Positions 31,132 through 62,664 of a DNA stretch of 64,000 nt are shown one piece after another (the first letter of the stretch is position 1; the number at the start of each line of letters is the position of its first letter). The notes under the pieces are model-generated. The model was given only the letters and a program-made list of their open reading frames with translations, was not told the origin of the DNA and did no database searches. The stretch comes from Bacteroidales bacterium (GTDB lineage: Bacteria > Bacteroidota > Bacteroidia > Bacteroidales > GCA-2748055). Made by a program: the position numbers and the translations under genes. The stretch is taken from NCBI GenBank assembly GCA_029210585.1, contig JARGFP010000006.1, positions 7,949-71,948 of the forward strand. Direction: 5' to 3'.

Positions 31132-31278
31132 GTGTTGTCAGGACAAATATTGCCCGGAGGATTGGAATTATCAAATGATTATTACAATTTATACCGGCAA
31201 AGGAATAAAAAATAATCCGCATACGTTTTGTTGGTACAAGGTCAATGCCGAAATGGCAGGAATAAAATTATCTTTGGG

Positions 31279-35199: not shown

Positions 35200-35465
35200 C
35201 TTTTGTCTCTCAGTTTCAGCCAACGGACTGTGGTGTGGCTTCAGCCCTAAAGTTAAAAATATTTTTCATTGCAACTATTCGCTGGATGCGGCATAAGATT
35301 CACAAGTTTTCCACGAATGGGAAGAATCCTTCAACAATATACCCGGGATGATGAATTGATTATTGTTTTACATCCGTTATCTTTGGGATACGGTTTATGC
35401 CTGCGCCGGCAAATGAAGCAATTGCCTGACCGGATGCCATTCAGCCTATGTAAATAAGTTCAAAA

Positions 35466-43172: not shown

Positions 43173-45149
43173 TTATCTGCCGGATGTGATTCCCGGCCAG
43201 TCGTCTATCCTGAAAGGACCCGCCGGCAATCCTGCTGCATTGTATAGATTGGCATCGTCAGGGTTGTCGGCCCATGCGTAGCGGACGGCGACGGGAACAT
43301 CCACTGCATCACTGCGAAGATAGATGTTGTTCCCGTATTGCACGCCTTTGGCCCAATGGAATACACGGTCCGCGCCTGCAATGGCGAATCCTTTCACATA
43401 GCCATATTTGTCGCGCACAACCAGTTCGCTGTCCATGGGGTCAAACTGCAGGACCACAGTCGGACCATCGATGGTAAACGTTTGCAGCACCGGACCTGAC
43501 CAGACAACTTCTTTCCCATATATGTCGTGCAATGCTGCGCGTGCCAGCCGCTTTCCCACATCCTGCTTGTTCCGTGGATGGATATCGTTTGCCTCGCCAA
43601 TATCGATGGCAACAGCCATGCCCGTATGCGGAAGGTCAAGTGTCATGGTTTGGGCTTCGCGTAATTCCGCCCAGTCACTTTCTGCCGGTTGGTCTTTCGC
43701 ATCCCTGAAATTGGCCAGTTGCACAAAATAGAACCCCAGTTCCGGGTTGTTCCAATGATTCCTCCAGTCTTTGATAAGGTTCGGGAAAAGCTTCCTGTAC
43801 CGGTAGGCCTGCCCTGCATTTGATTCTCCCTGGTACCAGATGGCACCCAGCACTTCAAAATTCAGCAATGGATGAATCATTCCGTTGAAAAGCAGCGTGG
43901 GTTTTGAGTTGGGAGAAATATTGACGGCCGTGTTCACTGAAAAACCGGCAGAGGAGACCCGGTACTTCCATGTTCCTGAAAGGTTGATGTTTCCGGCAGG
44001 GCTCTGCAGCACCATGGCATCCGGGCTTCCCCAGAACCCCCCATTGCCCCGGTAGTCTTCGATCCTTACCACCACCGTGTTCAACCCGGGTGTAAGGACC
44101 GCAGCCGGCACCTTGTATTCGCGCTCTGCGGCATAGGCATCCATGGTGGAGCCCACCTCCTTTCCGTTGATCCAGGTACGGTCGCTGTCGTCGATGGGAC
44201 CAAGTTTCAGCAACGCATCCTGAGCTGCCTGTTCCTCCGAAAGGGTAATCGTTCTCCTGTACCATACCACTCCGTCGAGTCCGCCCAGTCCGGCATCCTC
44301 CCAGACTCCCGGCACTTTCATTTCCTTCCAGGCAGAAAGGTCCATTGATGGTTCAGCCCACACCGGTTCACCATTGACGATCCCTTCCTCCAGTCCTCCC
44401 AGGGAGGCGATGAATTCCTGCCGTTCCTTCTGGATCCTGGCCTGTAGTTCCCCCGGGCTGACATTTTCAATAGTGGCCACAGCATCCCGCATGACCGGGT
44501 CGGTCTGTGACATTTCCCTGCTGGTCCATGTTTCCACGTTGGTTCCTCCCCAGTTGCTGCTGATCAGCCCGACCGGCACCCCGGTTTCCCTGTGGATCTT
44601 GCGTCCGAAAAAGTATCCGACTGCTGAAAAACCAGGCACGGTTTCCGGGCTGCATACGTTCCATTCTCCTGACGGAATATCGTCTGCAGGCATGAACTGA
44701 ATATTTTTGGGTACGGTGAAGAGCCTGATTTCCGGATGCTCTGCTGCAGCAATCTCTTTCTCTGCGTTGTCGGAGTTCTGAACGGTCCACTCCATGTTGG
44801 ACTGACCGGAACATACCCATACATCTCCTACCAGGATATTCTGCAGGCTGATCGTGTTCTTCCCATCGATCACCATCTCAAACGGACCCCCGGCCTGCAT
44901 GGGCTGCAGGACAACCATCCAGGTTCCGTCCTTCCCTGCACGCACCTGTGTTTCCTGACCGTTAAAAGCAACGGTAACCTTCTCCCGTGCATCGGCCCAG
45001 CCCCAGATGCTGACTTCCCGGTTTCGCTGCAGGACCATATTGCTTCCGATCACCTTTGGAAGTATTACCTCGGCAGACAGGTCTGCTGCTGCAATGATCA
45101 GTCCCATCATCAACAATGCGAGCTGTTTAATGTATGTATTCGTGTTCAT
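43173..45149 (-). CDS. SASA-family carbohydrate 9-O-acetylesterase (sialate O-acetylesterase-like)
   Basis: 658 aa with a signal peptide. GDVWVCSGQSNMEW (GQSN active-site block), ISSNWGGTNVETW, a central beta-sandwich insertion, GAIWYQGESNA and ANDIHPRNKQDVGKRLA. Confidence 0.85.
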   Translation of the reverse strand: MNTNTYIKQLALLMMGLIIAAADLSAEVILPKVIGSNMVLQRNREVSIWGWADAREKVTVAFNGQETQVRAGKDGTWMVVLQPMQAGGPFEMVIDGKNTISLQNILVGDVWVCSGQSNMEWTVQNSDNAEKEIAAAEHPEIRLFTVPKNIQFMPADDIPSGEWNVCSPETVPGFSAVGYFFGRKIHRETGVPVGLISSNWGGTNVETWTSREMSQTDPVMRDAVATIENVSPGELQARIQKERQEFIASLGGLEEGIVNGEPVWAEPSMDLSAWKEMKVPGVWEDAGLGGLDGVVWYRRTITLSEEQAAQDALLKLGPIDDSDRTWINGKEVGSTMDAYAAEREYKVPAAVLTPGLNTVVVRIEDYRGNGGFWGSPDAMVLQSPAGNINLSGTWKYRVSSAGFSVNTAVNISPNSKPTLLFNGMIHPLLNFEVLGAIWYQGESNAGQAYRYRKLFPNLIKDWRNHWNNPELGFYFVQLANFRDAKDQPAESDWAELREAQTMTLDLPHTGMAVAIDIGEANDIHPRNKQDVGKRLARAALHDIYGKEVVWSGPVLQTFTIDGPTVVLQFDPMDSELVVRDKYGYVKGFAIAGADRVFHWAKGVQYGNNIYLRSDAVDVPVAVRYAWADNPDDANLYNAAGLPAGPFRIDDWPGITSGR

Positions 45150-46235: not shown

Positions 46236-47690
46236 TTACACATTATAGGTGGAAGAGGCAGTATCTCCTCCCCTGCCTGTCCAGTTGGTGTGAAAGAATT
46301 CACCGCGCGGCTTATCGAGCCGTTCATAGGTATGCGCACCGAAGTAATCGCGCTGTGCCTGCAGCATGTTGGCCGGCAACCGCTCGGTACGGTACCCGTC
46401 GAAATAGCACAGGGCAGAGGTGAATGCAGGAATGGGGATGCCGTTCTCCAGTGCCACTGCACATATCTTGCGCCATCCTTGCTGTGACGCTTCCACTTTC
46501 TCCCTGAAAAAGTCATTCAGCAGCAGGTTAGAAAGGTCATTGTCGGCATCGAAAGCAGCTTTGATGTCGCCCAGGAAAGCCGACCGGATGATACATCCCC
46601 CCCGCCACATCAGGGCAATATCGCCGTAGTTCAGGTTCCAGCTGTACTCTTTTGCAGCCTCTTTCAGCAGTGTGAAGCCCTGGGCATAGGAGACGATCTT
46701 TGAAGCAAAGAGTGCCTGCCTGATGTATTCAATAAATGTTGCTTTATCCTCTTTGAATTCGATCGCGGGTCCGGAAAGCACTTTTGAAGCTTTTACACGT
46801 TCATCCTTGAGTGCTGAAAGACAGCGCGCAAAAACCGATTCCCCGATCAACGTCAGCGGAATCCCAAGGTCGAGTGCAGAGATGCCCGTCCATTTACCGG
46901 TCCCCTTCTGTCCGGCAGTATCCAGGATCTTCTCCAGCAGCGGCTCTCCATCTTCGTCCCTGAACCCCAGGATGTCGCGGGTGATCTCAATGAGGTAGGA
47001 ATCCAGCTCTCCCTCGTTCCATTCCCTGAATATGTCGTGCATTTCATCAGCGTCCATACCCAGCAGGTTCTTCATCAGGAAATAGGCTTCGCTGATCAGC
47101 TGCATATCGCCATATTCGATACCATTGTGAACCATTTTTACAAAATGTCCGGCACCATCACTGCCCACCCAGTCACAGCAAGGGGAACCATCTTCCACCT
47201 TTGCAGAAATGGACTGGAAGATCTCTTTCACATGGGGCCATGCTGCATCTGAACCGCCCGGCATGATCGAAGGACCTTTCAGTGCACCTTCCTCGCCTCC
47301 CGAAACACCTGTGCCAATGTACAGCAATCCTTTTTCCTCCACGTACTTTGTCCTGCGGATCGTATCCGGATAGTGTGAATTTCCGCCATCAATAATGATA
47401 TCGCCCTCTTCCAGGTGCGGAAGAAGCATCTCGATGAAATCATCCACCGGTTTTCCTGCCTTCACAAGCATCATCACTTTGCGCGGACGTTCCAGAGCGT
47501 CAACGAACTCTTCCACTGATGTTGCACCTATAAAATTTTTTCCCTTGCCCCTGCCGTTGACAAATTTTTCCACCTTTTCAACGGTCCGGTTGTACACGGC
47601 TACCGTATAACCGTTGTTTTCCATATTCAGGACCAGGTTTTCACCCATTACTGCAAGGCCGATCAGGCCAATGTCTGCTTTTTCTTTCAT
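46236..47690 (-). CDS. gnd: 6-phosphogluconate dehydrogenase, decarboxylating (NADP)
   Basis: 484 aa. ADIGLIGLAVMGENLVLNMENNGYTVAVYNRT, DGGNSHY, GTGVSGGEEGA, HFVKMVHNGIEYGDMQLI, IRSAFL and QRDYFGAHTYER. Confidence 0.96.
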   Translation of the reverse strand: MKEKADIGLIGLAVMGENLVLNMENNGYTVAVYNRTVEKVEKFVNGRGKGKNFIGATSVEEFVDALERPRKVMMLVKAGKPVDDFIEMLLPHLEEGDIIIDGGNSHYPDTIRRTKYVEEKGLLYIGTGVSGGEEGALKGPSIMPGGSDAAWPHVKEIFQSISAKVEDGSPCCDWVGSDGAGHFVKMVHNGIEYGDMQLISEAYFLMKNLLGMDADEMHDIFREWNEGELDSYLIEITRDILGFRDEDGEPLLEKILDTAGQKGTGKWTGISALDLGIPLTLIGESVFARCLSALKDERVKASKVLSGPAIEFKEDKATFIEYIRQALFASKIVSYAQGFTLLKEAAKEYSWNLNYGDIALMWRGGCIIRSAFLGDIKAAFDADNDLSNLLLNDFFREKVEASQQGWRKICAVALENGIPIPAFTSALCYFDGYRTERLPANMLQAQRDYFGAHTYERLDKPRGEFFHTNWTGRGGDTASSTYNV

Positions 47691-47925: not shown

Positions 47926-49065
47926 TCAAAAACAGCTATCGCCGATGACGTCGAATCCAAGGCCTTCAAAAATTTCCCTGTATTTTCCGTCATCGTTGAA
48001 CACACGCACATGGTAGGCGGGCGGTTCGCGCCTGACCCGGTAATCGCCCCTGAGCTTTTCAAACTGGTCCATGCGTGCCATAAAGTTTTCATGATCTTCC
48101 AGCACGTCGTATGTCATGCCGTACACCTCCCTGGTTACTTCCATGGCATCCCTCTCCGCTCCATCTGCAAACAGCTCCGGCTCTCCTGGTGCAGGCACAT
48201 CAGCAGGTGTCCACTGGTCCATACCCAGGCCGAAAAACCTGCTTGCGGCCCTGACACTCATGGCCGTTCCGTTGGCTTTTCCATCCGTGGAGTACCCTGC
48301 AATATGCGGCGTGGCGATGGTCAGCAATGACAGCAGTTCCCGATCGACAGCGGGTTCATGCTCAAACACATCCAGCACGGCTTCCGACAATTTGCCATAA
48401 CGCAGTGCGCGCTTCAGTGCTTCTTCATGCACCACCTCCCCGCGGCTGGTATTGATAAAGACGGCGCCCTGTTTCATCGCTGAAAACAAGCCATCGTCAG
48501 CCAGGTGCCTTGTGGGATATTTTCCGTGGTCCGACAGCGGAACATGGATGGTCACGATGTCTGCGGTCTCCAGCACTTTATCCAACACCGTAAACGCTGC
48601 ATCCCCCTCCTTATCCGCGCGTGGCGGATCGTTGAGCAGCACCTTGTATCCAAGTGCAGCAGCTGCCCTTGCCACTTTTGTTCCCACATTCCCCACACCG
48701 ATAATTCCCAGGGTTTTCCCTGCAGGGTCCGCCCCCCGGAACCCTGGCAGACTCAGCAGCACAGAGACGATGTATTGTTCCACGGACCCGGAATTGCATC
48801 CCGGTGCATTGGTCCAGGTGATTCCGGCCGCATCGCACCAGCCTGTATCGATATGGTCGTACCCGATGGTGGCCGTGGCAATGAATTTTACAGCGGATCC
48901 TTCCAGGAGTGCGCGGTTGCATTTGGTCCTGGTGCGCACGATCAGTCCGTCTGCATCCTTCACATCAGCCGGCCCGATTGCATCACCCGGCAGGTAGACT
49001 ACCACCGCTTTTGCTTCAAAAACGCCCCCGATGAACGGGATTTTATGATCGACAACCAACTTCAT
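47926..49065 (-). CDS. pdxB: 4-phosphoerythronate dehydrogenase
   Basis: 379 aa. MKLVVDHKIPFIGGVFE, the D-2-hydroxyacid dehydrogenase NAD fold (GIIGVGNVGTKVA), HIAGYS, and a PdxB-specific C-terminal dimerisation region (FEKLRGDYRVRREP). Confidence 0.85.
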   Translation of the reverse strand: MKLVVDHKIPFIGGVFEAKAVVVYLPGDAIGPADVKDADGLIVRTRTKCNRALLEGSAVKFIATATIGYDHIDTGWCDAAGITWTNAPGCNSGSVEQYIVSVLLSLPGFRGADPAGKTLGIIGVGNVGTKVARAAAALGYKVLLNDPPRADKEGDAAFTVLDKVLETADIVTIHVPLSDHGKYPTRHLADDGLFSAMKQGAVFINTSRGEVVHEEALKRALRYGKLSEAVLDVFEHEPAVDRELLSLLTIATPHIAGYSTDGKANGTAMSVRAASRFFGLGMDQWTPADVPAPGEPELFADGAERDAMEVTREVYGMTYDVLEDHENFMARMDQFEKLRGDYRVRREPPAYHVRVFNDDGKYREIFEGLGFDVIGDSCF

Positions 49066-49187: not shown

Positions 49188-50462
49188 TTAATTTTCAAAT
49201 TTATCCTTTGTGGACCAGAGCCCGGTGGCCGGATTGGAGATAAAATAAATCCTTTCCCCCCCGGGCAGATCGTTGAAACCATCTTTCAGTTTACCGGGAT
49301 CATACTTCCTGAGCATCATCTGCAGGTCGGCATACCTGTAATTCACCGATTCGATCTCTTCCCTGGTGAGGTTTTCAGGGCAGTAGGTAACCGAGAACCG
49401 CTGCTCGGTGGAGCCATGGATCAGGTGTGCCGCCGCACTCAGGTTATTGCGAAGGTCATCATTATTGGCCACAAAATCAAGTATTTCGGGCGTAGTCCTG
49501 TATCCATATTTACGGATCAACCGGTCGATTTCCGGATCCTCGCCAAATTCCTTCAGCCCTGGTGCCAGCACCACCAGTTGCCCGTTATCGGCAATGGCCA
49601 TCCGTGTACGGTAAATACTCTTGTTGCCGAGCCAGGTGCTCTTGAACTCTTCGGGGTCGAGGTAGACCACCACTTTATCCAAAGGCTCCGGGACCATTTC
49701 AAAGTTTACCTCCAGCGATAACGCGGCTGCTTTTTCAAAACAGTCATTGTCATCCCCGATGAACAATCCGCGCGGGACCAGCAATCCCGCGGAATTCCTT
49801 CCAACCACTGTCAGCACATAAACGACCGGCAACCCGGCACCAAAGGCACGTGCGGCATAATTCAGCACATCGCGCACGGGTGATTTCGCCCTGCCCATGA
49901 TCCGTTCCATGCCGTATGCAGCCCCCAGGAAATGGCTTTTATTGATCCCTTCCGGTCCGCCGGTACCCACAAAAATATTCTTGTTGTGGTTGGCCATACC
50001 AATCACTTCATGCGGCACCACCTGGCCAATGGAAAGGAGCAGGTCGTGCCCACCCTCCACAAGGAGCCTGTTGACCTGAGCGGGCCAGGCGTAGGAAACC
50101 CTCCCTTCAGAAACTTCCTGGACAAAATTTCCCGGCACTTCTCCCAGTGTCACCACGTCGGTTCGCCAGTTGTGTATCCTGAACAGGGACGCCGGGGTGG
50201 CTCCGTACATCTTTTTGATCTCCGCGGGAGTCATGGGTGCATGTGTTCCCAGGGCAGGAAGGATATCGGTCATGCTGTCTCCGTAATATTCCCAGGCCAT
50301 CTCCGTAATAGGTCCGGCAAGACTGTGGGCACGTGTGATATCCGGCGGTATTGCCAGCACTTTCTTTCGCCTGCCCAGCCTGTCTAGCGCCAGGTTCAGC
50401 CCTTCCCTGATGTCGTCGCGCGACAGCTCAAGGTCTTTTCCTCCTTTTTCGAAATAGATCAT
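49188..50462 (-). CDS. LarA-family (lactate racemase N-terminal domain/DUF2088) protein, putative NPN-dependent 2-hydroxyacid racemase/epimerase
   Basis: 424 aa. VLAIPPDITR resembles the LarA IISSDHTR block. ALGTH(74)AP resembles ATGFH(108)RP. PH(151)EVIGMANHNK(161)...INKSH(177) reproduces the 10- and 16-residue spacing of LarA His174/Lys184/His200 as I recall that sequence. Confidence 0.7.
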   Translation of the reverse strand: MIYFEKGGKDLELSRDDIREGLNLALDRLGRRKKVLAIPPDITRAHSLAGPITEMAWEYYGDSMTDILPALGTHAPMTPAEIKKMYGATPASLFRIHNWRTDVVTLGEVPGNFVQEVSEGRVSYAWPAQVNRLLVEGGHDLLLSIGQVVPHEVIGMANHNKNIFVGTGGPEGINKSHFLGAAYGMERIMGRAKSPVRDVLNYAARAFGAGLPVVYVLTVVGRNSAGLLVPRGLFIGDDNDCFEKAAALSLEVNFEMVPEPLDKVVVYLDPEEFKSTWLGNKSIYRTRMAIADNGQLVVLAPGLKEFGEDPEIDRLIRKYGYRTTPEILDFVANNDDLRNNLSAAAHLIHGSTEQRFSVTYCPENLTREEIESVNYRYADLQMMLRKYDPGKLKDGFNDLPGGERIYFISNPATGLWSTKDKFEN

Positions 50463-50478
50463 CTCACCAAGTTATTCA

Positions 50479-51366
50479 TTAATTCACTTTCCAGGAAGGC
50501 TTTTCGGGGAGGAAGGAATCAAATTTCTCCAGCAGTTCCTGTGCATAGGACCCTGCAAATGTGCCATTGAAAAACTTCTCCAGTCCTTCGTTCAGCAGGC
50601 GGTCCCACGAATCTTCCTCATGTCCGGGGTTGATCGGGAAGAACAACACCTCATTTGTCTTCGCCGCCTTGTAATCTCCGGGGGCATCACCAATCATCAG
50701 GATTTTGTTGTCCGGATACTTTCCTTTTGCTGCCAGTGCCAGGTGCTCTGTCTTGGTACCATATTCCTGTCCGCAGATGATCCTGACAAAGCCTTCGATG
50801 CCATTTTCCTCCCATTCACGCTCCAGTGCTTCCAGCGGTGTTTGCGAAACGACAAGGGCATCGGCCTTCTCACTGATCTTCTCCAGTGACGCACGCACTC
50901 CCGGGAACGGGGGCATTCCGAATACCATGTCCCTGATATTCCGGTTCACCTGCAACGACCATTCCAGTGCCAGGTCGATATCGGGATGGTTGACTGTTTT
51001 GGCATATTCAATAAGCGCGGGGTTCCCGAGCTTGGATTCCTTCTGGGTCCACCGGATCAGTTCCGACATATCGGGCAGTACCATGCCGCGTGCATGCACT
51101 TCCGGCCGTTGTGCCAGCAACCTGAATGTCTCCAGCACTGCCAGGAAGCGATTCACTCCCCGGGTCTTGGAGTAGAGGTTTGTAAATTCCCAGGTTTCCC
51201 TGGCATACTTGGATATTTTCTGCAGTCCGTAATACTTGATGAAATTCGGACAAAAACACTCTTTCTGTTTGATTTCCATCGTGTCGAACGCACATCCGTC
51301 GGAGTCGATGCCAATGAAAAATTCTTTGGTGGGTTGAAGTTCTTTTAATTGATCCTGCAGATTCAT
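50479..51366 (-). CDS. HAD-superfamily hydrolase (phosphatase-like)
   Basis: 295 aa. FIGIDSDGCAFDT is HAD motif I (DxD). LMIGDAPGDYKAA is motif IV. The stop is 16 nt upstream of the LarA-family start. Confidence 0.75.
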   Translation of the reverse strand: MNLQDQLKELQPTKEFFIGIDSDGCAFDTMEIKQKECFCPNFIKYYGLQKISKYARETWEFTNLYSKTRGVNRFLAVLETFRLLAQRPEVHARGMVLPDMSELIRWTQKESKLGNPALIEYAKTVNHPDIDLALEWSLQVNRNIRDMVFGMPPFPGVRASLEKISEKADALVVSQTPLEALEREWEENGIEGFVRIICGQEYGTKTEHLALAAKGKYPDNKILMIGDAPGDYKAAKTNEVLFFPINPGHEEDSWDRLLNEGLEKFFNGTFAGSYAQELLEKFDSFLPEKPSWKVN

Positions 51367-51529
51367 AGGTATATATCTTTTTTAAAGTATTATGATTAAA
51401 TTCGTTATTCATTCTGTTTTTCTCCAGCGGAGTTATTCTTCCTTATTCGTCAGCCTCATCAGCTCCACTTCGTTCAGGTTGTTACCGCACATTATACATC
51501 ATTAGGTTTCAGGCCGGAAGACCAGGCCA

Positions 51530-52807
51530 TCAGCCTGCCTGGAGCGAATAATCCTTCAGTTTCTTTTCCGCAAAGATGGGTTTGAGCTGCGCGAAACGCT
51601 GCCGACCGTTGATCACCGGCACACTCACCCAGTCCTCGCCGATCAGGGGGCGCACATATTCCAGGAAAGCATCGGTAACATCCACCCTGCTTTCGGCGAT
51701 CCATTTATCGGGAAAGGTCCTTTCCGACAGCGCCACTTTTTCCAGCGGCACCTTGTCGTACCTTACATTATAGATATAGCCCGGTTCCCGCAGGATCGTG
51801 GCCATCCACCCGTTTCCGTCGTTGAGTGCGATATCCACCGCTTTTTGTCCGACACGGTACGCCTCGTCCAGGTCCACCGTGGATGCATAGATGGCTGTAT
51901 CGCGCTGGTCGGTGCCCATCACCTGTCCGCGTGCCTTCCCGCGTGCCTTGAGTCCCACTTCATTCAGGTAGTTCACCACCACCTGGAAGACCGACTGCTG
52001 GCTGCTGCCGAAAGAGGTATGACCAAAGGAGTCTTTCACCTCTCCGAGTGACCCGACATCGAAGCCTTCACTTACCACCACGATGCAACGGCCATCTTTC
52101 TGCAGCTGGTCATTCACCCGGTCGGCCATCTCCATCAGGGAAAGTCCGGATTCGGCCATGTAGATCTGCAGCGGGATTTCCCGGCCAGGATCTGCCAGTC
52201 GCGCAGCTGCCGGTATGTACCCGATCTTTCTTCCCATGGCCTGGAGTACCAGCACCGGGTCGGCCGGGGAGGAACCCCTGTTTTCTTCGTCTGCATTCTG
52301 AACGATATGCGACCAGTACTTTGCCACACTGCCATAGCCCGGCGTATGGTCGATCAGTTTGAATTCACTGTCGCCCACGTCGTTGTCGATCGTCTTGGGC
52401 ACCCCAACGGCCACCACGTCAAGTCCGTGCTCCCTGGCCATCTCGCTGACACGAAAAGCCGTATGCTGGGAATCATTGCCGCCGATGTAAAAGAAATACC
52501 CGATGTCATGGGCCCTGAGCACCTCCACGATCCTGGCCATGTCCTTTTCCTGGTGGTCCTTCAGCTTGTACCGGCAGGTACCCACTGAACCGGCTGCCGG
52601 GGTTGTTCTGAGCAGCGCGATCTCCTCGTCGGGTTGGGCGGAAAGATTGAGCAACTCCTCCAGGAGCACCCCTTCAATGCCATGCCAGCCGGCATATAAG
52701 GTGCCAAAGGTTTCGGGAAACCGTTTGCAGGTTTCCACGATCCCCCTCAGTGATGCATTGATTACCGGGGAAGGTCCCCCCGATTGTGCTACGATTACAT
52801 TTCTCAT
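51530..52807 (-). CDS. Phosphofructokinase-family enzyme (short PPi-PFK-like)
   Basis: 425 aa. VIVAQSGGPSPVINASLRG, FFYIGGNDS (N-D where the E. coli ATP-PFK motif is D-G), VGVPKTIDND and VLQAMGRKIGYIP. The phosphoryl donor cannot be decided from sequence alone. Confidence 0.8.
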   Translation of the reverse strand: MRNVIVAQSGGPSPVINASLRGIVETCKRFPETFGTLYAGWHGIEGVLLEELLNLSAQPDEEIALLRTTPAAGSVGTCRYKLKDHQEKDMARIVEVLRAHDIGYFFYIGGNDSQHTAFRVSEMAREHGLDVVAVGVPKTIDNDVGDSEFKLIDHTPGYGSVAKYWSHIVQNADEENRGSSPADPVLVLQAMGRKIGYIPAAARLADPGREIPLQIYMAESGLSLMEMADRVNDQLQKDGRCIVVVSEGFDVGSLGEVKDSFGHTSFGSSQQSVFQVVVNYLNEVGLKARGKARGQVMGTDQRDTAIYASTVDLDEAYRVGQKAVDIALNDGNGWMATILREPGYIYNVRYDKVPLEKVALSERTFPDKWIAESRVDVTDAFLEYVRPLIGEDWVSVPVINGRQRFAQLKPIFAEKKLKDYSLQAG

Positions 52808-52954: not shown

Positions 52955-53809
52955 CTAAACCCCGCCGTAGGCACTGTATCCCCCGTCCACCGGAATGCAG
53001 ATGCCGGTAATGAAATGGCTCATGTCCGACAAGAGGTAGAGCGCTGTTCCGGTAATATCTGCCGGTTCACCGAATGCTCCCATCGGTGTACTGGCAATAA
53101 TTTTCTTACCCCGGGAGGTGAGTGCTCCTGTTGCTTCATCCAACAGCAGGAACCTGTTCTGGTTGGTGAGGAAGAACCCGGGTGCAATGGCATTGACCCG
53201 CACCCCTGTCTTGGCGAAATGCACCGCCAGCCATTCCGTGAAATTATTGATGGATGCCTTGGCGGCGGAGTAGGCCGGGATCTTGGTAAGGGGTTTGTAG
53301 GCGTTCATCGATGAAATATTCAGGATGACACCCTTCTGACGCTGCACCATCTGCTTTGCGAAGACCATTGTAGGGAGCAGTGTCCCCATGAAGTTCAGGT
53401 CGAACACCTTCTGGAAGCCCTCCATTTCGAGGCCGAAGAAGGATTTCTCCAGGTTGTCCAGGTCGTCTTCAGTGAGTTCCTCCAGCTGCGTGGTAGCCTG
53501 GGGGGAGTTCCCTCCTGCCCCGTTGATCAGGAAGTCGATCTGCCCCGCCTCGTCGGTAATTTGCTGAAGCACCGCCACCAGCGAAGCCTTATCCAGCACA
53601 TTTGCCTTCATTCCGAAGGATTTCGTTCCGGTCTCTTCCTGTACCGTGGTTGCCACTTTCTGCGCAGCTTCCTCATTGATGTCGAGAATCACTGTGACGA
53701 TTCCAACCCCAGCAAGCCCTGTGGCCAGTGAGGCACCAATAACGCCACCACCGCCGGTGATCACGCATACCTTGTCTTTAAGATCATTCAGATTGTTCAT
53801 ATTGTGCAT
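52955..53809 (-). CDS. SDR-family oxidoreductase, UxuB-like (putative fructuronate reductase / D-mannonate oxidoreductase)
   Basis: VCVITGGGGVIG, NGAGGN, SS..AY....IPAYSAAK (YxxxK), NAIAPGFFLT. Length and the long substrate-loop insertion resemble the SDR-type UxuB of Bacteroides/Bacillus. Possible starts are ATG 53809 or 53800; both overlap the upstream LacI stop (53784). Confidence 0.6.
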   Translation of the reverse strand: MHNMNNLNDLKDKVCVITGGGGVIGASLATGLAGVGIVTVILDINEEAAQKVATTVQEETGTKSFGMKANVLDKASLVAVLQQITDEAGQIDFLINGAGGNSPQATTQLEELTEDDLDNLEKSFFGLEMEGFQKVFDLNFMGTLLPTMVFAKQMVQRQKGVILNISSMNAYKPLTKIPAYSAAKASINNFTEWLAVHFAKTGVRVNAIAPGFFLTNQNRFLLLDEATGALTSRGKKIIASTPMGAFGEPADITGTALYLLSDMSHFITGICIPVDGGYSAYGGV

Positions 53810-54860
53810 TGAAATTTAGATAATAATCCACGTTTTCCTTTGTAAGTATGTCGATAGGCAGCAACACCTGGGGCGGCTGCTTTCGCTTGAGAACGGCCAG
53901 GCTGAAGAGTTGTCGGATTCCCAGGTAGGATTGTTCCTCCGGGCTTTGCGAAAGAAGGTAATCGATGTATTCCCGCTTCAGGTATTCAACGCTTTCCGGG
54001 AGGAGGTCGTACCCGATCAGCCGCACATTCATGGCACCGCGTTCGGCAAGGTACCTGGCCACCATATGTACCCTCGAATTGGTAACAAAGATGCCTGCAA
54101 CACTGAATTCCGTCATTTTCCTGGCGATCTCATCGGCCACCGTTTCATAATCGCCGCCATTCAGGTTAACGGATACCAGGTTGCTGACCCGGTCGCCGTG
54201 TTCTTCAAAATAGGCACGGAAGCCGCGTTCCCTCCTGATAATATGCTGGTAATTGTCTTTACGCAGGGAGAGGTTCACCACCAGGAGGTCCTTTCCAGAC
54301 GGAAGCCCGTAGCTGATCAGCCTTCCCCCGAGGAATCCGCTCTGGAAGGCATCCTGGCCAATAAAACCATCGGTCTCGATGCCTTCGACCCGGGAATTGA
54401 ACTGGACGCACGGGATCCCTGCTTCTTTCCACCTGGTGAGGAATTCGGCAGCTTCTTTACTGAATACCGGCGCAAACAGGAGCCCGTCGTACTTGCTCAC
54501 CTCAACAGTGCGCACCTTATCAGAAAAATCCGATTTACTGTGCTGGTCAAACCGCAGGTAATCAACATGAAGGTCAAAATGGCGCAATTCCTCCAGTGCT
54601 TTTTGCACACCCAGTTCGGGAAGTTTCCAGAAAGCGTGTGCGTTCACGACGTCCGGCATACATACCATCAGGCGGTACGTCCTGTTGGAGGCGAGGGCAC
54701 CGGCCAATATATCAGGCTCATAATCATACTCTTCAATGATCATTTCCACCCGTCTCCTGGTGGCTTCCGAGACCCCTTCCCGACCATGAAGCACCCGGTC
54801 AACCGTTCCCGTGGAAACGTTGGCAAGCCGTGCAATATCCTTGATCCTGATTCTTGACAT
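53784..54860 (-). CDS. LacI-family transcriptional regulator
   Basis: 358 aa. The N-terminal HTH is IRIKDIARLANVSTGTVDRVLHGREGVSEATRRRV. A periplasmic-binding-protein-like sugar-binding core follows. Confidence 0.92.
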   Translation of the reverse strand: MSRIRIKDIARLANVSTGTVDRVLHGREGVSEATRRRVEMIIEEYDYEPDILAGALASNRTYRLMVCMPDVVNAHAFWKLPELGVQKALEELRHFDLHVDYLRFDQHSKSDFSDKVRTVEVSKYDGLLFAPVFSKEAAEFLTRWKEAGIPCVQFNSRVEGIETDGFIGQDAFQSGFLGGRLISYGLPSGKDLLVVNLSLRKDNYQHIIRRERGFRAYFEEHGDRVSNLVSVNLNGGDYETVADEIARKMTEFSVAGIFVTNSRVHMVARYLAERGAMNVRLIGYDLLPESVEYLKREYIDYLLSQSPEEQSYLGIRQLFSLAVLKRKQPPQVLLPIDILTKENVDYYLNFNAQYEQSE

Positions 54861-55298: not shown

Positions 55299-56549
55299 AT
55301 GAAAAAAATTGAAAAATATTCCTTCGGCATTGGCGACAGGTTCACGATGCAGGGAGAGGCACAATTGCGGGCAATCATGCAGGCGAATGACCTGGGGATT
55401 CCACTGGTGCCGGTATGGAACAAATCGAACAGGGAGCACCAGATCGTCAGGACCGTCCCGGCCGATACGTGGTCGGAAGCAGCCAGGGCTGTTGGCGCCT
55501 TGAACTATGCAGGCAACTGGTATGTGGATGCGGACCATATCAACTTATCGAACGTGGATGCCTACATCCCGCATTCCAATTTCTTTACCCTTGATGTTGC
55601 CGATTACATTGGCAGGCAGGGAGAGGCCGCCGGTCAGACTGACATGCTCAGAAAGCTGCAGCCGTTTACAGGCGAGCTGAACATTCCCGGGATCGATGAA
55701 ACATTCAGCATTACCGAACCGCAGCTGGAAGGGATCGTAAACAAATTCCACATGGCTGTGAAGGAGGCAGCGCTCATTTACAGGCGCATCAGCGCGGAAC
55801 GGGGGAATGAAGATTTCATCGCTGAAGTATCCATGGATGAGGTTGAAGAGGCGCAATCTCCCGTGGAACTGTTCTTTATCCTGCTGATGATTGACCATTA
55901 CGGCATTCCTGCACAGACCATTGCACCGAAGTTTACGGGACGATTCAACAAGGGGGTCGACTATGTGGGCGATGTGGACCAGTTCAGGAAAGAGTTTGAG
56001 CAGGACCTGCTGGTGATCGACCATGCTGTGAACATTTTTAACCTCCCGCGGAATTTGAAGTTAAGCGTCCATTCAGGAAGTGATAAATTCTCCATTTACC
56101 CGGTAATCGGCGAGCTGATCAGGAAATATGACAAGGGAATCCATGTAAAAACTGCGGGAACCACCTGGCTGGAAGAGGTCATCGGACTCGCCATGGCAGG
56201 AGGTGAGGCACTTGCGCTCGCCAAATCCATTTATAGCAGCGCCTTCCAGCGGATGGACGAACTGTGCGGTCCCTATGCCACGGTGATTGATATTGACAAG
56301 CAGAAACTGCCGGATCCTTCGGAAGTGGATGCATGGGACAGCGCCAGGTTTGCAGGTACCCTCAGGCACATTCCAGGTCATACCGATTATGACCCGATGT
56401 TCCGGCAGCTGATCCATGTAGGATACAAGGTGGCGGCGGAAATGGGAACGGCGTACCTGGAAATGCTGGAGAAACACAAGGAGATCGTCGGGTCGCAGGT
56501 AACTGAGAACATTTTTGACAGACACATTAAACGATTGTTTGACCTTTAG
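55299..56549 (+). CDS. uxaE: Tagaturonate/fructuronate epimerase
   Basis: 416 aa. FGIGDRF, WYVDADH, LSVHSGSDKFSIYP, IHVKTAGTTWLEE, FRQLIHVGYKV and DRHIKRLF match my recollection of Thermotoga UxaE blocks (SLHSGSDKFSVYP, HVKTAGTSYLEA, RQLIHVTYG, HIKRH). Confidence 0.8.
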   Translation: MKKIEKYSFGIGDRFTMQGEAQLRAIMQANDLGIPLVPVWNKSNREHQIVRTVPADTWSEAARAVGALNYAGNWYVDADHINLSNVDAYIPHSNFFTLDVADYIGRQGEAAGQTDMLRKLQPFTGELNIPGIDETFSITEPQLEGIVNKFHMAVKEAALIYRRISAERGNEDFIAEVSMDEVEEAQSPVELFFILLMIDHYGIPAQTIAPKFTGRFNKGVDYVGDVDQFRKEFEQDLLVIDHAVNIFNLPRNLKLSVHSGSDKFSIYPVIGELIRKYDKGIHVKTAGTTWLEEVIGLAMAGGEALALAKSIYSSAFQRMDELCGPYATVIDIDKQKLPDPSEVDAWDSARFAGTLRHIPGHTDYDPMFRQLIHVGYKVAAEMGTAYLEMLEKHKEIVGSQVTENIFDRHIKRLFDL

Positions 56550-56783: not shown

Positions 56784-58184
56784 ATGAAACCATTCATGGA
56801 CGAAGACTTTTTACTGGAGACAAAGTCGGCCCGGGAGCTCTACCATTCTTTTGCCAGCGAAGTGCCGATCATCGACTACCATTGTCACCTCAACCCGGAA
56901 GATATTGCCAACGACCGGAAATTCAACAATATTTCTGAAATATGGCTGGCCGGGGACCATTATAAATGGCGGGCCATGCGTGCCAACGGCATCAATGAAA
57001 AATACTGCACAGGCGATGCCCCGGACCGGGATAAATTCATGAAGTGGGCCGAGACGGTGCCTGCAACCCTCAGGAATCCGCTGTACCACTGGACGCACAT
57101 GGAGCTGCGCAGGTATTTCGGAATCCAGGAGCTGCTGGGACTGGATACTGCCGAAATGATCTACGACAAAACGGCAAAGATGCTTCAGGAAGATGAGTTC
57201 AGCGTAAGGAACCTGCTTCGCAAAATGAACGTGGAAGTGGTCTGTACAACCGATGATCCGGTGGACAGCCTGGAGCACCACAGGAAGATCAGCGAGGATG
57301 GATTTGAGATCAAAGTACTGCCAACGTGGCGACCCGACAAAGCCATGGCGGTGGATGACATTGCAACCTACATCAGCTATCTTGATCAACTTGCGGAGGC
57401 AGCATCACATCCCGTCAACCATTTCATGGATTTGCTGGAGGCGCTGATGAAACGCCACGATTATTTCGGTTCAATGGGATGCCGGTTGTCTGATCACGGG
57501 CTGGAGCATTTCATTTACGAAGAGTATACGCATGAGGAGATTGAGGAAATCTTCGCAAAAATCAGGACTAAAAAAGAAATTACGCAAACAGAGAAAACGA
57601 AGTTCCGGACCGCGATGCTGGTGGAACTTGCGGTGATGGACCATGACAAGGGATGGACGCAGCAGTTTCACGTGGGAGCCATCCGGAACAACAATTCACG
57701 GATGTTTCACCAGGTGGGACCCGACAGCGGATTTGATTCGATAGGTGATTTCCCGATGGCAAGGGCCATGTCGCGGTTTTTTGCCCGGCTGGATCACCTG
57801 GGACAGCTGGCAAAAACCATTGTATACAACCTGAATCCTTCCGACAACGAGGTGATGGTGACCATGGCCTGCAATTTCAACGATGGTACGGTCCCGGGAA
57901 AGATGCAATTCGGCTCAGGCTGGTGGTTCCTCGATCAGAAAAAGGGAATGGAGGCGCAACTGGACAGCCTTTCGCAACTGGGTCTGCTCAGCAGGTTCAT
58001 AGGAATGCTCACCGATTCGAGAAGCTTTCTTTCCTTCCCGCGTCACGAATACTTCAGGCGTATCCTTTGTAACCTGCTTGGCAGGGACATGGAGAACGGG
58101 GAATTGCCCAACGACATGGAGATGGTGGGAACCATGGTGCACGATATCTGCTACCGGAACGCAAAACAATATTTTGGATTCTGA
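56784..58184 (+). CDS. uxaC: Glucuronate isomerase
   Basis: 466 aa. MKPFMDEDFLLETKSARELYH ... IIDYHCHL ... GDHYKWRAMRANG ... NPLYHWTHMELRR ... KMQFGSGWWF ... LTDSRSFLSFPRHEYFRRILC. It appears collinear with E. coli UxaC throughout. Confidence 0.97.
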   Translation: MKPFMDEDFLLETKSARELYHSFASEVPIIDYHCHLNPEDIANDRKFNNISEIWLAGDHYKWRAMRANGINEKYCTGDAPDRDKFMKWAETVPATLRNPLYHWTHMELRRYFGIQELLGLDTAEMIYDKTAKMLQEDEFSVRNLLRKMNVEVVCTTDDPVDSLEHHRKISEDGFEIKVLPTWRPDKAMAVDDIATYISYLDQLAEAASHPVNHFMDLLEALMKRHDYFGSMGCRLSDHGLEHFIYEEYTHEEIEEIFAKIRTKKEITQTEKTKFRTAMLVELAVMDHDKGWTQQFHVGAIRNNNSRMFHQVGPDSGFDSIGDFPMARAMSRFFARLDHLGQLAKTIVYNLNPSDNEVMVTMACNFNDGTVPGKMQFGSGWWFLDQKKGMEAQLDSLSQLGLLSRFIGMLTDSRSFLSFPRHEYFRRILCNLLGRDMENGELPNDMEMVGTMVHDICYRNAKQYFGF

Positions 58185-61260: not shown

Positions 61261-62664
61261 TTGGGCAAGAAGCATCATACTTCCCTCCGGAAAGCACCTG
61301 CCGGATTTGCTGCCCTGGCAATGATCGGTCCTTCGCTGGTCTGGGTCTCTGAATATATCGGGTCCGGCGAGGTGATCATCGCCACCCGTGCAGGAGCATT
61401 GCTGGGCACAGGCATCCTCTGGGCGGTGGTGGCCGGAATTTTCCTCAAATTCTGGATCGGGATGTCGGGAGCCCGCTACACGGTGACCACGGGAGAAGGG
61501 ATGATCGATCTCTTCGACCGGATGCCCGGACCTGCCCACTGGGCAGTATGGATGATCATGATCATCCAGCTTGCAGCAGCAGCAGTCTCCATTGGCTCCG
61601 TGGCATCTGCGGGAGGTATCTTTCTTGCGCACATCACCCATATGCCCCGGTTCATGGGCGGATGGCTTATAACGCTGGCAGCTTTTGGCATCGCCTGGAA
61701 AGGAACCTTCAAATGGTTGAAAATCACCATGAGCATCCTGGTGCTCACGGTAATCGTTGGTGTTATCTATGTTGCCGTAAATGTTTTTCCTTCAGCAGCA
61801 GAATTCTTTTCCGGGCTGGTGCCCTCGAAACCTGAAATGCCCGAATGGGCCATAGACAAAGGTCTGGATATCAACCCCTGGCGTGAAATTCTTCCGCTGC
61901 TCGGCTGGGGTGCAGGTGGATTTGCCAGCCAGGTATGGTACAGTTACTGGGTGATCGGTGCCGGTTACGGCATGACCAGCAAGGATGGATACGGGATACC
62001 GGCAGACCGGGAAAAATTGCAAAGCATAGATGCAGGATCGGCGAAGGAGCTCAGAAAATGGCAGCGGTTTGTCTCCAAGGATGCCTCCCTGGCCATGATC
62101 ATCGGAATTGTTGCGACCGGTGGCTTCCTGATCGCAGGCGCCGGGATCCTGGGAAGCAGGCAGGTCGTCCCGGAAGGTGAACATGTGGCGCTTCAGCTAT
62201 CGGAATTGTTCTCCGCCAATTGGGGCACAACAGGTGCATTTCTATTCGTTTTAGGCGGAGCCGCGGCACTGTTCTCTACGCAGATCGGGCAATTGGCCGG
62301 CTGGCCACGGCTGCTGTCTGACGCATTCAGGCTTTGCATGCCAAAAACTGCCGGTCGCATTCCCTGGAAGCAGCAATTCAGGGTCATCCTGGTATTTCTG
62401 ACACTTGCCAGCATGACCATCATTTTCACCCTGGGATACAAGCCCGTGGTCCTTGTAAAGTTTGCTGCCATATTCGAGGGATTGCTGCTAACGCCCATCC
62501 AGGCACTGGGACTGTTCTTCGGCCTCTATTTTGTGATGCCGGAATTTTTCCGCCCGGAGGTCAGGAAGACCATCACTCCGCACTGGTCCGTCGGAGCAGG
62601 ACTCCTGGTTGCATTTCTTTTCTTCCTCTATTTCTGCGTGGTTCAGCTGCCGGCAATATTGTAA
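61261..62664 (+). CDS. Nramp-superfamily-like polytopic membrane transporter
   Basis: 467 aa with about 11-12 hydrophobic segments. The N-terminal LAMIGPSLVWVSEYIGSGEVIIATRAGA resembles Nramp TM1, but YIGSGE replaces the DPGN motif. The start is a TTG at 61261, 1 nt after the upstream stop; the first in-frame ATG is at aa 21, so the start is uncertain. Confidence 0.6.
   Translation: MGKKHHTSLRKAPAGFAALAMIGPSLVWVSEYIGSGEVIIATRAGALLGTGILWAVVAGIFLKFWIGMSGARYTVTTGEGMIDLFDRMPGPAHWAVWMIMIIQLAAAAVSIGSVASAGGIFLAHITHMPRFMGGWLITLAAFGIAWKGTFKWLKITMSILVLTVIVGVIYVAVNVFPSAAEFFSGLVPSKPEMPEWAIDKGLDINPWREILPLLGWGAGGFASQVWYSYWVIGAGYGMTSKDGYGIPADREKLQSIDAGSAKELRKWQRFVSKDASLAMIIGIVATGGFLIAGAGILGSRQVVPEGEHVALQLSELFSANWGTTGAFLFVLGGAAALFSTQIGQLAGWPRLLSDAFRLCMPKTAGRIPWKQQFRVILVFLTLASMTIIFTLGYKPVVLVKFAAIFEGLLLTPIQALGLFFGLYFVMPEFFRPEVRKTITPHWSVGAGLLVAFLFFLYFCVVQLPAIL

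What the first reader, a model, noticed from the sequence alone, without database searches (positions are those of the whole stretch)
49188..51366. LarA-family enzyme retaining the nickel-pincer catalytic spacing, coupled to a HAD phosphatase
The 424-aa protein aligns by eye to lactate racemase LarA. GTH74AP matches GFH108RP. H151, K161 and H177 reproduce the His174 / Lys184 (NPN tether) / His200 (Ni ligand) spacing of 10 and 16 residues, with LarA numbering from memory. So it is probably an active NPN-dependent 2-hydroxyacid racemase or epimerase, not a degenerate DUF2088.

It sits 16 nt downstream of a HAD hydrolase, and both lie in a sugar-acid neighbourhood rather than next to lactate genes. 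LarA homologues have been reported to act on other 2-hydroxyacids, including, as I recall, C2 epimerisation of gluconate. The substrate here is unknown.
Basis: partly seen in the sequence, partly recalled or inferred. Interest (0 to 1): 0.62.

Follow-up and report, generated by a model that had tools for sequence, protein, structure and literature searches.

The report
Nickel-cofactor sugar-acid epimerase, known family
This gene encodes a member of an already catalogued family of nickel-cofactor enzymes that most likely turns mannonate into gluconate, letting uronic acids from plant polysaccharides enter the pentose phosphate pathway; the neighbouring phosphatase gene belongs with a kinase-like gene rather than with the epimerase.

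Summary
Window 49188-50462 (minus strand) encodes a 424-aa LarA-family protein with His74, His151, Lys161 and His177 as described. A 295-aa HAD hydrolase gene ends 16 nt upstream.

It is not a new kind of enzyme. It scores 648 bits (cutoff 500) on NCBIfam NF052594, "nickel-dependent putative hexonate epimerase". This is LarA-homologue group 18 of Desguin et al. 2020. It carries that group's published signature and is 71% identical to a listed member. All catalytic and cofactor-binding residues are invariant in 30 relatives from at least six phyla.

The operon is LacI, UxuB-type mannonate oxidoreductase, PFK-like, HAD, epimerase, PdxB-like, Gnd, divergent from uxaE-uxaC. Gnd accompanies the epimerase in 45 of 50 related loci, which points to D-mannonate to D-gluconate conversion feeding Gnd. 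A Phytophthora enzyme inferred to belong to this group has that activity (2024).

The HAD is part of a two-gene PFK-HAD module. The module also occurs without the epimerase, and it sits where other loci carry a PfkB sugar-acid kinase. Its function is unexplained and is the most novel element here.

The parts
49188..50462 (-). LarA-homologue group 18 enzyme (P0001, 424 aa): predicted NPN-dependent hexonate C2-epimerase (D-mannonate/D-gluconate)
   Evidence: NF052594 648 bits against a cutoff of 500. Pfam Lar_N. 4NAR E = 5e-36. AF2 pLDDT 91.9, with TM 0.81 to 4NAR and about 0.7 to LarA structures. The group-18 signature is identical and identity to MROS_2332 is 71%.
50479..51366 (-). HAD-superfamily hydrolase (P0002, 295 aa), C1-cap type, substrate unknown
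   Evidence: Pfam HAD_2 25.3 bits against 23.8. Motifs D21xD23, S174/T176, K205 and D227/D231 are invariant in 20 relatives. AF2 pLDDT 91.8. Only generic HAD folds match in the PDB, at TM 0.4-0.5. LarAH18 is present, normally directly downstream, in 48 of 50 HAD-anchored loci.
51530..52807 (-). PfkA-family, PPi-type phosphofructokinase homologue (P0004, 425 aa), always paired with the HAD
   Evidence: NF010675 365 bits against 273. 3K2Q and 3HNO hit at E about 1e-70. It has the D104/K124 PPi-type signature, Pro at the position of E. coli Arg162, and a 5-aa insert. The HAD is present, directly downstream, in 55 of 56 PFK-anchored loci.
52955..53800 (-). SDR-type D-mannonate oxidoreductase (UxuB-like fructuronate reductase)
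   Evidence: NF006132 381 bits against a cutoff of 281. Present in 44 of 50 LarAH18-anchored loci.
53784..54860 (-). LacI-family regulator, first gene of the minus-strand cluster
   Evidence: Pfam LacI and Peripla_BP_4. Syntenic in Bacteroidota loci.
47926..49065 (-). PdxB-like D-2-hydroxyacid (4-phosphoerythronate) dehydrogenase
   Evidence: NF001309 433.2 bits against a cutoff of 434. Lies between the epimerase and gnd in 21 of 50 loci; all of those seen in the locus listings are Bacteroidota.
46236..47690 (-). gnd, NADP-dependent decarboxylating 6-phosphogluconate dehydrogenase
   Evidence: TIGR00873 784 bits. Present in 45 of 50 LarAH18-anchored loci. A terminator-like hairpin lies at 46125-46105.
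55299..56549 (+). uxaE, tagaturonate/fructuronate epimerase (divergent operon)
   Evidence: Pfam PF16257 UxaE.
56784..58184 (+). uxaC, glucuronate/galacturonate isomerase
   Evidence: NF002794 657 bits.

Best explanation
P0001 is a functional member of LarA-homologue group 18. It is a nickel-pincer-nucleotide (NPN) dependent C2-epimerase that interconverts D-mannonate and D-gluconate as free acids.

Inferred pathway:
1. UxaC and UxaE convert glucuronate or galacturonate to fructuronate.
2. The UxuB-type SDR reduces fructuronate to D-mannonate.
3. P0001 inverts C2 to give D-gluconate.
4. A kinase makes 6-phosphogluconate.
5. Gnd oxidises it to ribulose-5-phosphate.

The mechanism is inferred from the family. 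The C2 hydride moves to C4 of the pyridinium ring of NPN. NPN is tethered to Lys161, with Ni bound by His177 and the phosphate by Arg44. This gives a bound 2-keto intermediate. His74 and His151 act as acid and base on opposite faces, and the hydride returns to the other face.

Shown here: family membership, residue conservation, fold and gene context. Inferred: the substrate, the activity and the availability of the cofactor.
For: - NF052594 equivalog scores 648 bits against a cutoff of 500.
- The signature D R H H E V K H .. W L N K S A A L I H S is identical to group 18 in Dataset S2 of PMC7583248. Identity is 71%, 64% and 61% to listed members from Melioribacter, Acidobacterium and Tannerella.
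- All catalytic and NPN-binding residues are invariant in 30 relatives from Bacteroidota, Planctomycetota, Verrucomicrobiota, Spirochaetota, Ignavibacteria and Acidobacteriota.
- Alignment to LarA and GntE2 reproduces the published residue numbers.
- The fold matches GntE2 (4NAR) at TM 0.81.
- Context in 50 full loci: gnd in 45 and the mannonate oxidoreductase in 44, together with uxaC and uxaE. The same context is reported for group 18 in Table S1 of PMC7583248.
- Groups 19 and 20 epimerise D-mannonate.
- Phytophthora nicotianae LarAH15 was assayed as a narrow-spectrum D-gluconate 2-epimerase (KM 9.4 mM, kcat 111 per s). Its cloning primer encodes M-A-T-L-L-F-A-E-G, matching the LarA domain of P. 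infestans PITG_09435, which is listed in group 18.
- P0001 has the E, V, A, H residues that PMC11770544 gives as typical of GntEs.
Against: - No enzyme of bacterial group 18 has been assayed. Placing LarAH15 in group 18 is my inference from a primer and an orthologue.
- larB, larC and larE were not found in the 64-kb window.
- The operon has no classical gluconate kinase.
- Gene order usually places the kinase before the epimerase, as in the phosphorylated route of Valk et al. 2020.
- The KM of LarAH15 for mannonate is high, at 9.4 mM.
- The C-terminal signature mapping depends on the published structure-based alignment. A sequence-only alignment places those residues differently.
Confidence: 0.6

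Rival explanations
1. P0001 is the orphan 6-phosphomannonate 2-epimerase. A kinase (PfkB-type in most loci, the PFK-like/HAD module here) first phosphorylates mannonate or fructuronate. P0001 then converts 6-phosphomannonate to 6-phosphogluconate for Gnd.
For: - Valk et al. [quoted passage not shown] The genes were not identified, and no later paper in the library mentions the compound.
- In group-18 loci the kinase usually lies between the reductase and the epimerase, and gnd follows directly.
- Group 18 is only about 26% identical to the validated GntE2.
- Group 18 has its own invariant Arg residues: R95, R191, R287 and R355.
Against: - The inferred group-18 member LarAH15 works on free D-mannonate at 111 per s.
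- At the signature positions group 18 has fewer basic residues than groups 19 and 20: Ser where they have Arg.
- About 40% of full loci have no kinase nearby.
Confidence: 0.2
2. P0001 epimerises a different 2-hydroxy sugar acid of the pathway. One example is D-fructuronate (5-keto-D-mannonate) to 5-keto-D-gluconate. Another is a different hexonate pair, such as altronate/allonate.
For: - Desguin et al. only claim 'a hexonate' for group 18.
- Group 19 GntE1 has a very high KM for mannonate and is suspected of having another native substrate.
- The SDR also has weaker matches to gluconate 5-dehydrogenase models.
Against: - The SDR passes the D-mannonate oxidoreductase model (381 against 281 bits) and none of the 5-ketogluconate reductase cutoffs.
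- Among the hexonate pairs considered here, only mannonate/gluconate connects UxuB to Gnd. This rests on established pathway knowledge.
- LarAH15 had a narrow spectrum centred on mannonate/gluconate.
Confidence: 0.1
3. P0001 is a cofactor-less or degenerate DUF2088 protein with no epimerase activity in this organism.
For: NPN biosynthesis genes were not seen in the window, and the genome could not be searched.
Against: - All catalytic and NPN-binding residues are invariant across phyla at 64-88% overall identity, which indicates strong purifying selection.
- lar genes are not among the neighbours listed for group 18 in the published context analysis either.
- Earlier notes of this scan report larC-larE-larB operons elsewhere in Bacteroidales genomes. 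These are leads only.
Confidence: 0.05
4. P0001 is a plain lactate racemase.
For: It shares the fold and the catalytic core.
Against: - The NCBIfam LarA model scores 21 bits against a cutoff of 460.
- The hydrophobic F175/F176 loop of LarA is E152/V153 here.
- No lactate genes are nearby, and identity to LarA is 15-16%.
Confidence: 0.01

Closest known systems
LarA-homologue group 18 ('G2E3', putative hexonate epimerase) of Desguin et al. 2020, which is NCBIfam NF052594
   Same: Passes the curated model, has an identical 19-residue signature, is 61-71% identical to listed bacterial members, and has the same SDR / 6PGDH / kinase / UxaC context.
   Different: Nothing material; it is a member. The PFK-like and HAD neighbours are not among the neighbours listed for group 18 in the published context table.
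GntE2 (TM0442, PDB 4NAR) and GntE1: D-gluconate 2-epimerases, groups 20 and 19
   Same: Same fold (TM 0.81) and the same catalytic and NPN residues. It has the E-V/S loop after the second catalytic His, a role linking mannonate to gluconate, and a hexuronate context.
   Different: Identity is only about 26%. The distal pocket signature differs: L, N, S, L, I, H, S against T, G/A, N/G, V/S, I/T, N/H, R. In T. maritima the kinase partner is annotated as a gluconate kinase (gntK), not a PfkB- or PFK-like gene.
LarAH15 of Phytophthora nicotianae (Urdiain-Arraiza et al. 2024)
   Same: Probably the same group: its orthologue PITG_09435 is listed in group 18. It was assayed as a narrow-spectrum D-mannonate/D-gluconate epimerase.
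   Different: It is eukaryotic, and the P. infestans orthologue listed in Dataset S2 carries a long N-terminal extension.
Lactate racemase LarA of L. plantarum (PDB 5HUQ)
   Same: Same fold, and the same His/His/Asp/Lys catalytic set and Arg/Lys/His NPN-binding set, with identical 10- and 16-residue spacing.
   Different: Identity is 15-16%. It has a hydrophilic substrate loop, fails the LarA equivalog model, and has no lar operon next to it.

Membership tests
LarA superfamily (NPN-dependent 2-hydroxyacid racemases/epimerases) | Lar_N domain and two-domain LarA fold | tested here: met
   Pfam PF09861 scores 39.6 bits against 23.3. The AF2 model has pLDDT 91.9. Foldseek's top 19 PDB hits are all LarA-family structures, at TM 0.54-0.81.
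LarA superfamily (NPN-dependent 2-hydroxyacid racemases/epimerases) | Catalytic residues equivalent to LarA D72, H108, H174 and K298 | tested here: met
   D41, H74 and H151 map by my own alignment. K281 maps through the 4NAR alignment and the published GntE2 G286/K287 mapping. All are invariant in 30 relatives. The K298 mapping depends on the alignment used.
LarA superfamily (NPN-dependent 2-hydroxyacid racemases/epimerases) | NPN-binding residues equivalent to R75, K184 (tether) and H200 (Ni ligand) | tested here: met
   R44, K161 and H177. They are invariant and match the published GntE2 residues R41, K164 and H180.
LarA superfamily (NPN-dependent 2-hydroxyacid racemases/epimerases) | larB, larC and larE present in the same genome | not testable with these tools
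The genes are absent from the window. No LarC or LarE motifs were found in 3.2 Mb of related loci. The window's genome does not appear to be in genome contigs, since the best match there is 88% identical.
LarAH group 18 / NF052594 | Score above the curated equivalog cutoff | tested here: met
   648 bits against 500, covering residues 12-417 of 424.
LarAH group 18 / NF052594 | Group-specific signature at the positions of Table S3 / Dataset S2 | tested here: met
   19 of 19 checked positions are identical to ACP_2683.
LarAH group 18 / NF052594 | Genomic context of SDR, 6-phosphogluconate dehydrogenase, sugar kinase and UxaC | tested here: met
   This is the window's operon, seen in 80 related loci.
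D-gluconate 2-epimerase (GntE) | Measured D-mannonate/D-gluconate interconversion with NPN | not testable with these tools
   This needs an enzyme assay. It has been shown only for groups 19 and 20 and for LarAH15.
D-gluconate 2-epimerase (GntE) | E, V, A, H at the positions of LarA F175, F176, W358 and T359 (PMC11770544) | tested here: inconclusive
   E152 and V153 are certain. A345 and H346 exist in the conserved AAAHLIH motif, but their equivalence to W358/T359 depends on a structure-based alignment I could not reproduce.
Lactate racemase LarA (NF033504) | Equivalog score and the hydrophobic F175/F176/W358 pocket | tested here: not met
   21.3 bits against a cutoff of 460. The loop is E152/V153.
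HAD superfamily phosphatase (for P0002) | Four HAD motifs, including the DxD nucleophile and general acid | tested here: met
   D21-S-D23, S174/T176, K205 and D227/D231 are invariant. Pfam HAD_2 is marginal at 25.3 against 23.8 bits. The fold is HAD-like.
PPi-dependent phosphofructokinase, PRK14072 clade (for P0004) | Subfamily score and the Asp104/Lys124 phosphoryl-donor signature | tested here: met
   365 bits against 273. The GGNDS and PKTIDND motifs are present.
PPi-dependent phosphofructokinase, PRK14072 clade (for P0004) | Basic residue at the E. coli Arg162 position, which binds the fructose-6-phosphate 6-phosphate | tested here: not met
   Pro (in SSPADP) in all 18 operon-linked PFKs of the 77-93% identity group, and Thr in the divergent L033 PFK. 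The solved clade members 3K2Q and 3HNO have Lys.

The most novel reading that the evidence does not exclude
The operon encodes a phosphorylated variant of the mannonate-to-gluconate shunt. The PfkA-family gene, with its obligate HAD partner, would be a new PPi-type sugar-acid 6-kinase module that replaces the PfkB kinase (KdgK-like). That would be the first PFK-family enzyme acting on a sugar acid. P0001 would be the orphan 6-phosphomannonate 2-epimerase of Valk et al. 2020. The HAD would serve as a cognate phosphatase, for example removing dead-end 6-phosphomannonate.
Probability: 0.15. Interest if true: 0.65.

Novelty: new member of a known kind. Interest (0 to 1): 0.3.

Why it matters
The epimerase gets a precise annotation. 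It completes a route from pectin- and glycan-derived uronic acids to ribulose-5-phosphate through Gnd, which is redox-neutral according to Valk et al. 2020. The route appears widespread in uncultured Bacteroidota, Ignavibacteria, Planctomycetota, Verrucomicrobiota and Spirochaetota: 336 confirmed relatives were found among the representative genomes of 185,579 species.

It is not a discovery of a new enzyme class. The group, its signature and its context were published in 2020, and NCBI has a curated model for it.

Two things could matter. First, no gene has been assigned to 6-phosphomannonate 2-epimerase or to mannonate kinase. Second, the PFK-HAD pair stands where a KDG or hexonate kinase is expected. 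If the PFK homologue phosphorylates a sugar acid, the known substrate range of the phosphofructokinase family would widen; a 2025 review names only fructose-6-phosphate and sedoheptulose-7-phosphate as substrates.

Tried and rejected
The larBCE test therefore could not be run.
2. The look-up of encoding contigs on four other window proteins, to annotate the rest of the window and walk outwards, returned 'not on record'. Ten candidate ORFs were scanned with Pfam instead, and none is LarB, LarC or LarE.
3. A profile of 30 group-18 sequences searched against the PDB reached only 4NAR, not 5HUQ. The LarA comparison was done by fold search and by alignment with the published LarA sequence.
4. A motif scan for LarC (G-x-S-G-D-M) and LarE (SGGxDS) in 3.2 Mb of related loci found only a 519-aa ORF carrying the generic SGGVDS PP-loop motif, which looks like GMP synthase (not confirmed).
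5. The notebook of earlier findings had nothing on lar genes in this genome.
6. I tried to judge mannonate against 6-phosphomannonate from the pocket. Model coordinates are not exposed, so only signature positions could be compared, and the result is weak.
7. PFK substrate-residue comparison with E. coli PfkA, 3K2Q and 3HNO was suggestive (Arg162 equivalent lost) but inconclusive, because the Arg243 and Arg252 equivalents are kept.
8. The HAD fold search gave only generic C1-cap HADs (beta-phosphoglucomutase-like, YniC, mannitol-1-phosphatase, the BT2127 pyrophosphatase) at TM 0.4-0.5, with no specific assignment.
9. Rejected readings: lactate racemase, degenerate DUF2088, and the HAD as a dedicated partner of the epimerase.
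Full report
**Observation.** The window has a 424-aa ORF at 49188-50462 and a 295-aa ORF at 50479-51366. Both are on the minus strand and are separated by 16 nt.

**Family membership.**
- Pfam finds the lactate racemase N-terminal domain (39.6 bits against a cutoff of 23.3).
- NCBIfam places the protein in NF052594, [quoted passage not shown], at 648 bits against a cutoff of 500. The lactate racemase model reaches only 21 bits against 460.
- The only solved relative found by sequence is 4NAR (E = 5e-36). This is T. maritima GntE2, a demonstrated D-gluconate 2-epimerase.
- An AlphaFold2 model built on 30 relatives has pLDDT 91.9. Its 19 best PDB matches are all LarA-family structures: 4NAR at TM 0.81, then the Isosphaera racemase, the Thermoanaerobacterium apoprotein, 5HUQ and the malate racemase.

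**Residue mapping.** I took the L. plantarum LarA sequence from Dataset S2 of Desguin et al. 2020 and aligned it with P0001, GntE2 and group-18 relatives.
- LarA D72, R75, H108, H174, K184 and H200 fall on P0001 D41, R44, H74, H151, K161 and H177.
- The same LarA residues fall on GntE2 D38, R41, H73, H154, K164 and H180. These are the GntE2 numbers published in that paper, which validates the alignment.
- The loop after the second catalytic histidine is E152-V153 rather than Phe-Phe.
- In the C-terminal domain the sequence-only alignment differs from the published structure-based one. I therefore rely on the published mapping there: LarA K298 equals GntE2 K287, which equals P0001 K281 through.
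- All these residues are invariant in an alignment of 30 relatives.

**Identity with published group 18.** Dataset S2 gives group 18 ("G2E3") the signature D R H H E V K H V W L N K S A A L I H S. P0001 matches at all 19 positions checked. It is 71% identical to Melioribacter roseus MROS_2332, 64% to Acidobacterium ACP_2683, 61% to Tannerella BFO_3309 and 51% to a diatom member. Desguin et al. did not assay group 18 and hypothesised a hexonate epimerase.

In 2024 the same laboratory assayed LarAH15 of Phytophthora nicotianae as a narrow-spectrum D-mannonate/D-gluconate epimerase, with KM 9.4 mM and kcat 111 per s. Its cloning primer encodes M-A-T-L-L-F-A-E-G. This is the start of the LarA domain of P. 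infestans PITG_09435, which is listed in group 18. I infer that a group-18 enzyme has in fact been validated. This link is my inference, not a statement of the authors.

**Gene context in the window.** The same protein and operon also occur in NCBI assembly GCA_032250755.1. The minus-strand cluster reads, in order:
- a LacI-family regulator;
- an SDR that passes the D-mannonate oxidoreductase model (381 against 281 bits);
- a PFK homologue;
- the HAD;
- the epimerase;
- a PdxB-like dehydrogenase (433.2 against 434 bits);
- gnd.

The cluster is divergent from uxaE and uxaC. A terminator-like hairpin follows gnd.

**Gene context in relatives.** A scan of one genome per species found 336 relatives. 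The best 80 are 64-88% identical and come from Bacteroidota, Ignavibacteria, Planctomycetota, Verrucomicrobiota, Spirochaetota, Acidobacteriota and Gemmatimonadota. Among the 50 loci with at least 3 kb on both sides:

| Neighbour | Loci (of 50) |
|---|---|
| gnd | 45 |
| mannonate oxidoreductase | 44 |
| PdxB-like gene | 21 |
| PfkB-family KdgK-like kinase | 18 |
| HAD | 14 |
| PFK homologue | 11 |

This matches the published context for group 18: SDR 36%, 6PGDH 32%, ribokinase-family kinase 16% and UxaC 12%. Among the hexonate pairs considered, only mannonate to gluconate connects a fructuronate reductase to Gnd by a C2 epimerisation. That is the route Rodionova et al. proposed for T. maritima.

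**The HAD.** It has all four HAD motifs, with D21 and D23 as nucleophile and general acid. Its model is confident (pLDDT 91.8). It matches only generic C1-cap HADs in the PDB. Public sources name it only "HAD hydrolase-like".
- With the HAD as query, the epimerase is present in 48 of 50 full loci, normally directly downstream, and the PFK homologue is present in 43, normally directly upstream.
- With the PFK homologue as query, the HAD is present in 55 of 56 full loci, normally directly downstream.
- These three locus sets overlap, so they are not independent samples.

The pair also occurs without the epimerase:
- In Melioribacteraceae loci it lies among GH28, UxaC, UxaE, KDPG aldolase, UxuA, a TRAP transporter, KduI and an SDR.
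- In an Ignavibacteriaceae locus it lies among KduI, KDPG aldolase, the UxuB-type SDR, transketolase and UxaC.
- In three loci it lies between a Gfo/Idh/MocA oxidoreductase and gnd.

No KdgK-type gene is present in these clusters. In the epimerase-anchored loci the PFK homologue and the PfkB kinase never co-occur (0, 11, 18 and 21 loci for both, PFK only, PfkB only and neither; Fisher p = 0.004, not corrected for phylogeny). The PFK-HAD pair therefore stands where a sugar-acid 6-kinase is expected.

**The PFK homologue.** It belongs to the PRK14072 PPi-PFK clade and has the Asp104/Lys124 signature. It has Pro where E. coli has Arg162 and where the solved clade members 3K2Q and 3HNO have Lys. 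It also carries a 5-residue insert after TIDND. A 2025 review of the PFK family names only fructose-6-phosphate and sedoheptulose-7-phosphate as substrates.

I conclude that the HAD is not a dedicated partner of the epimerase. I cannot explain what the HAD does. Conserved Arg residues in its cap (R56, R69, R73) suggest an anionic substrate, such as a phospho-sugar acid. A repair phosphatase for 6-phosphomannonate is one idea.

**Free acid or 6-phosphate?** Valk et al. [quoted passage not shown] No later paper in the library mentions the compound.
- In favour of this order of reactions: the gene order in most group-18 loci is reductase, kinase, epimerase, gnd.
- Against it: LarAH15 is active on free mannonate, and group 18 has Ser where groups 19 and 20 have Arg at one signature position.

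I give the free-acid reading 0.6 and the phosphorylated reading 0.2.

**Cofactor genes.** larB, larC and larE are not in the window. No LarC or LarE motifs occur in 3.2 Mb of related loci. lar genes are not among the neighbours listed for group 18 in the published analysis either. Earlier notes of this scan describe larC-larE-larB operons at other places in Bacteroidales genomes. I treat those as leads only.

**Verdict.** The object is a new member of a known, catalogued family. An earlier agent of this scan reached the same conclusion for a relative in another genome. The unexplained PFK-HAD module is the part worth an experiment.

Noticed in passing
window 50479-52807 (minus strand); L179, L181, L170, L141, L191, L193, L196: A PRK14072-type PPi-PFK homologue and a divergent HAD form an almost obligate gene pair (55 of 56 full loci). 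The pair sits in hexuronate and KDG clusters exactly where a PfkB sugar-acid kinase (KdgK-like) is otherwise found. It never co-occurs with that kinase, and it appears with KDPG aldolase, UxuA and KduI but no KdgK in Melioribacteraceae and Ignavibacteriaceae loci. It may be a new sugar-acid kinase module.
   Followed up: partly
window 47926-49065 (minus strand): A PdxB-like 4-phosphoerythronate dehydrogenase scores 433.2 bits against a cutoff of 434. It is wedged between the epimerase and gnd in 21 of 50 related loci; all of those seen in the locus listings are Bacteroidota. It could be the housekeeping pdxB kept by synteny, or a paralogue acting on a phospho-sugar acid. I could not check whether the genome has a second pdxB.
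   Followed up: no
L013, L024, L025 (upstream of the LarA-like gene): Some loci carry two tandem copies of the PfkB KdgK-like kinase between the SDR and the epimerase. This suggests two kinase specificities, for example KDG and a hexonate.
   Followed up: no
window 1-35000: The rest of the window is dominated by very large ORFs of 500-1400 aa, a GH43, a sulfatase and an adenylate/guanylate cyclase-HD protein. It looks like a polysaccharide-utilisation region. The 315-aa ORF at 31228-32175 and the 262-aa ORF at 35460-36248 have no Pfam match; the latter overlaps an Exo_endo_phos_3 gene on the other strand and is probably not a gene.
   Followed up: partly
window 61261-62664 (plus strand): A 467-aa ORF has a partial Nramp match (divalent-metal transporter family) a few kb from the epimerase operon. 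I did not test whether it could supply nickel.
   Followed up: no
window 43173-45149 (minus strand): A 658-aa SASA-family (sialate O-acetylesterase-like) protein lies downstream of gnd. It recurs after gnd in Chitinophaga-type and several Bacteroidales loci, and may be a carbohydrate esterase of the same regulon.
   Followed up: no
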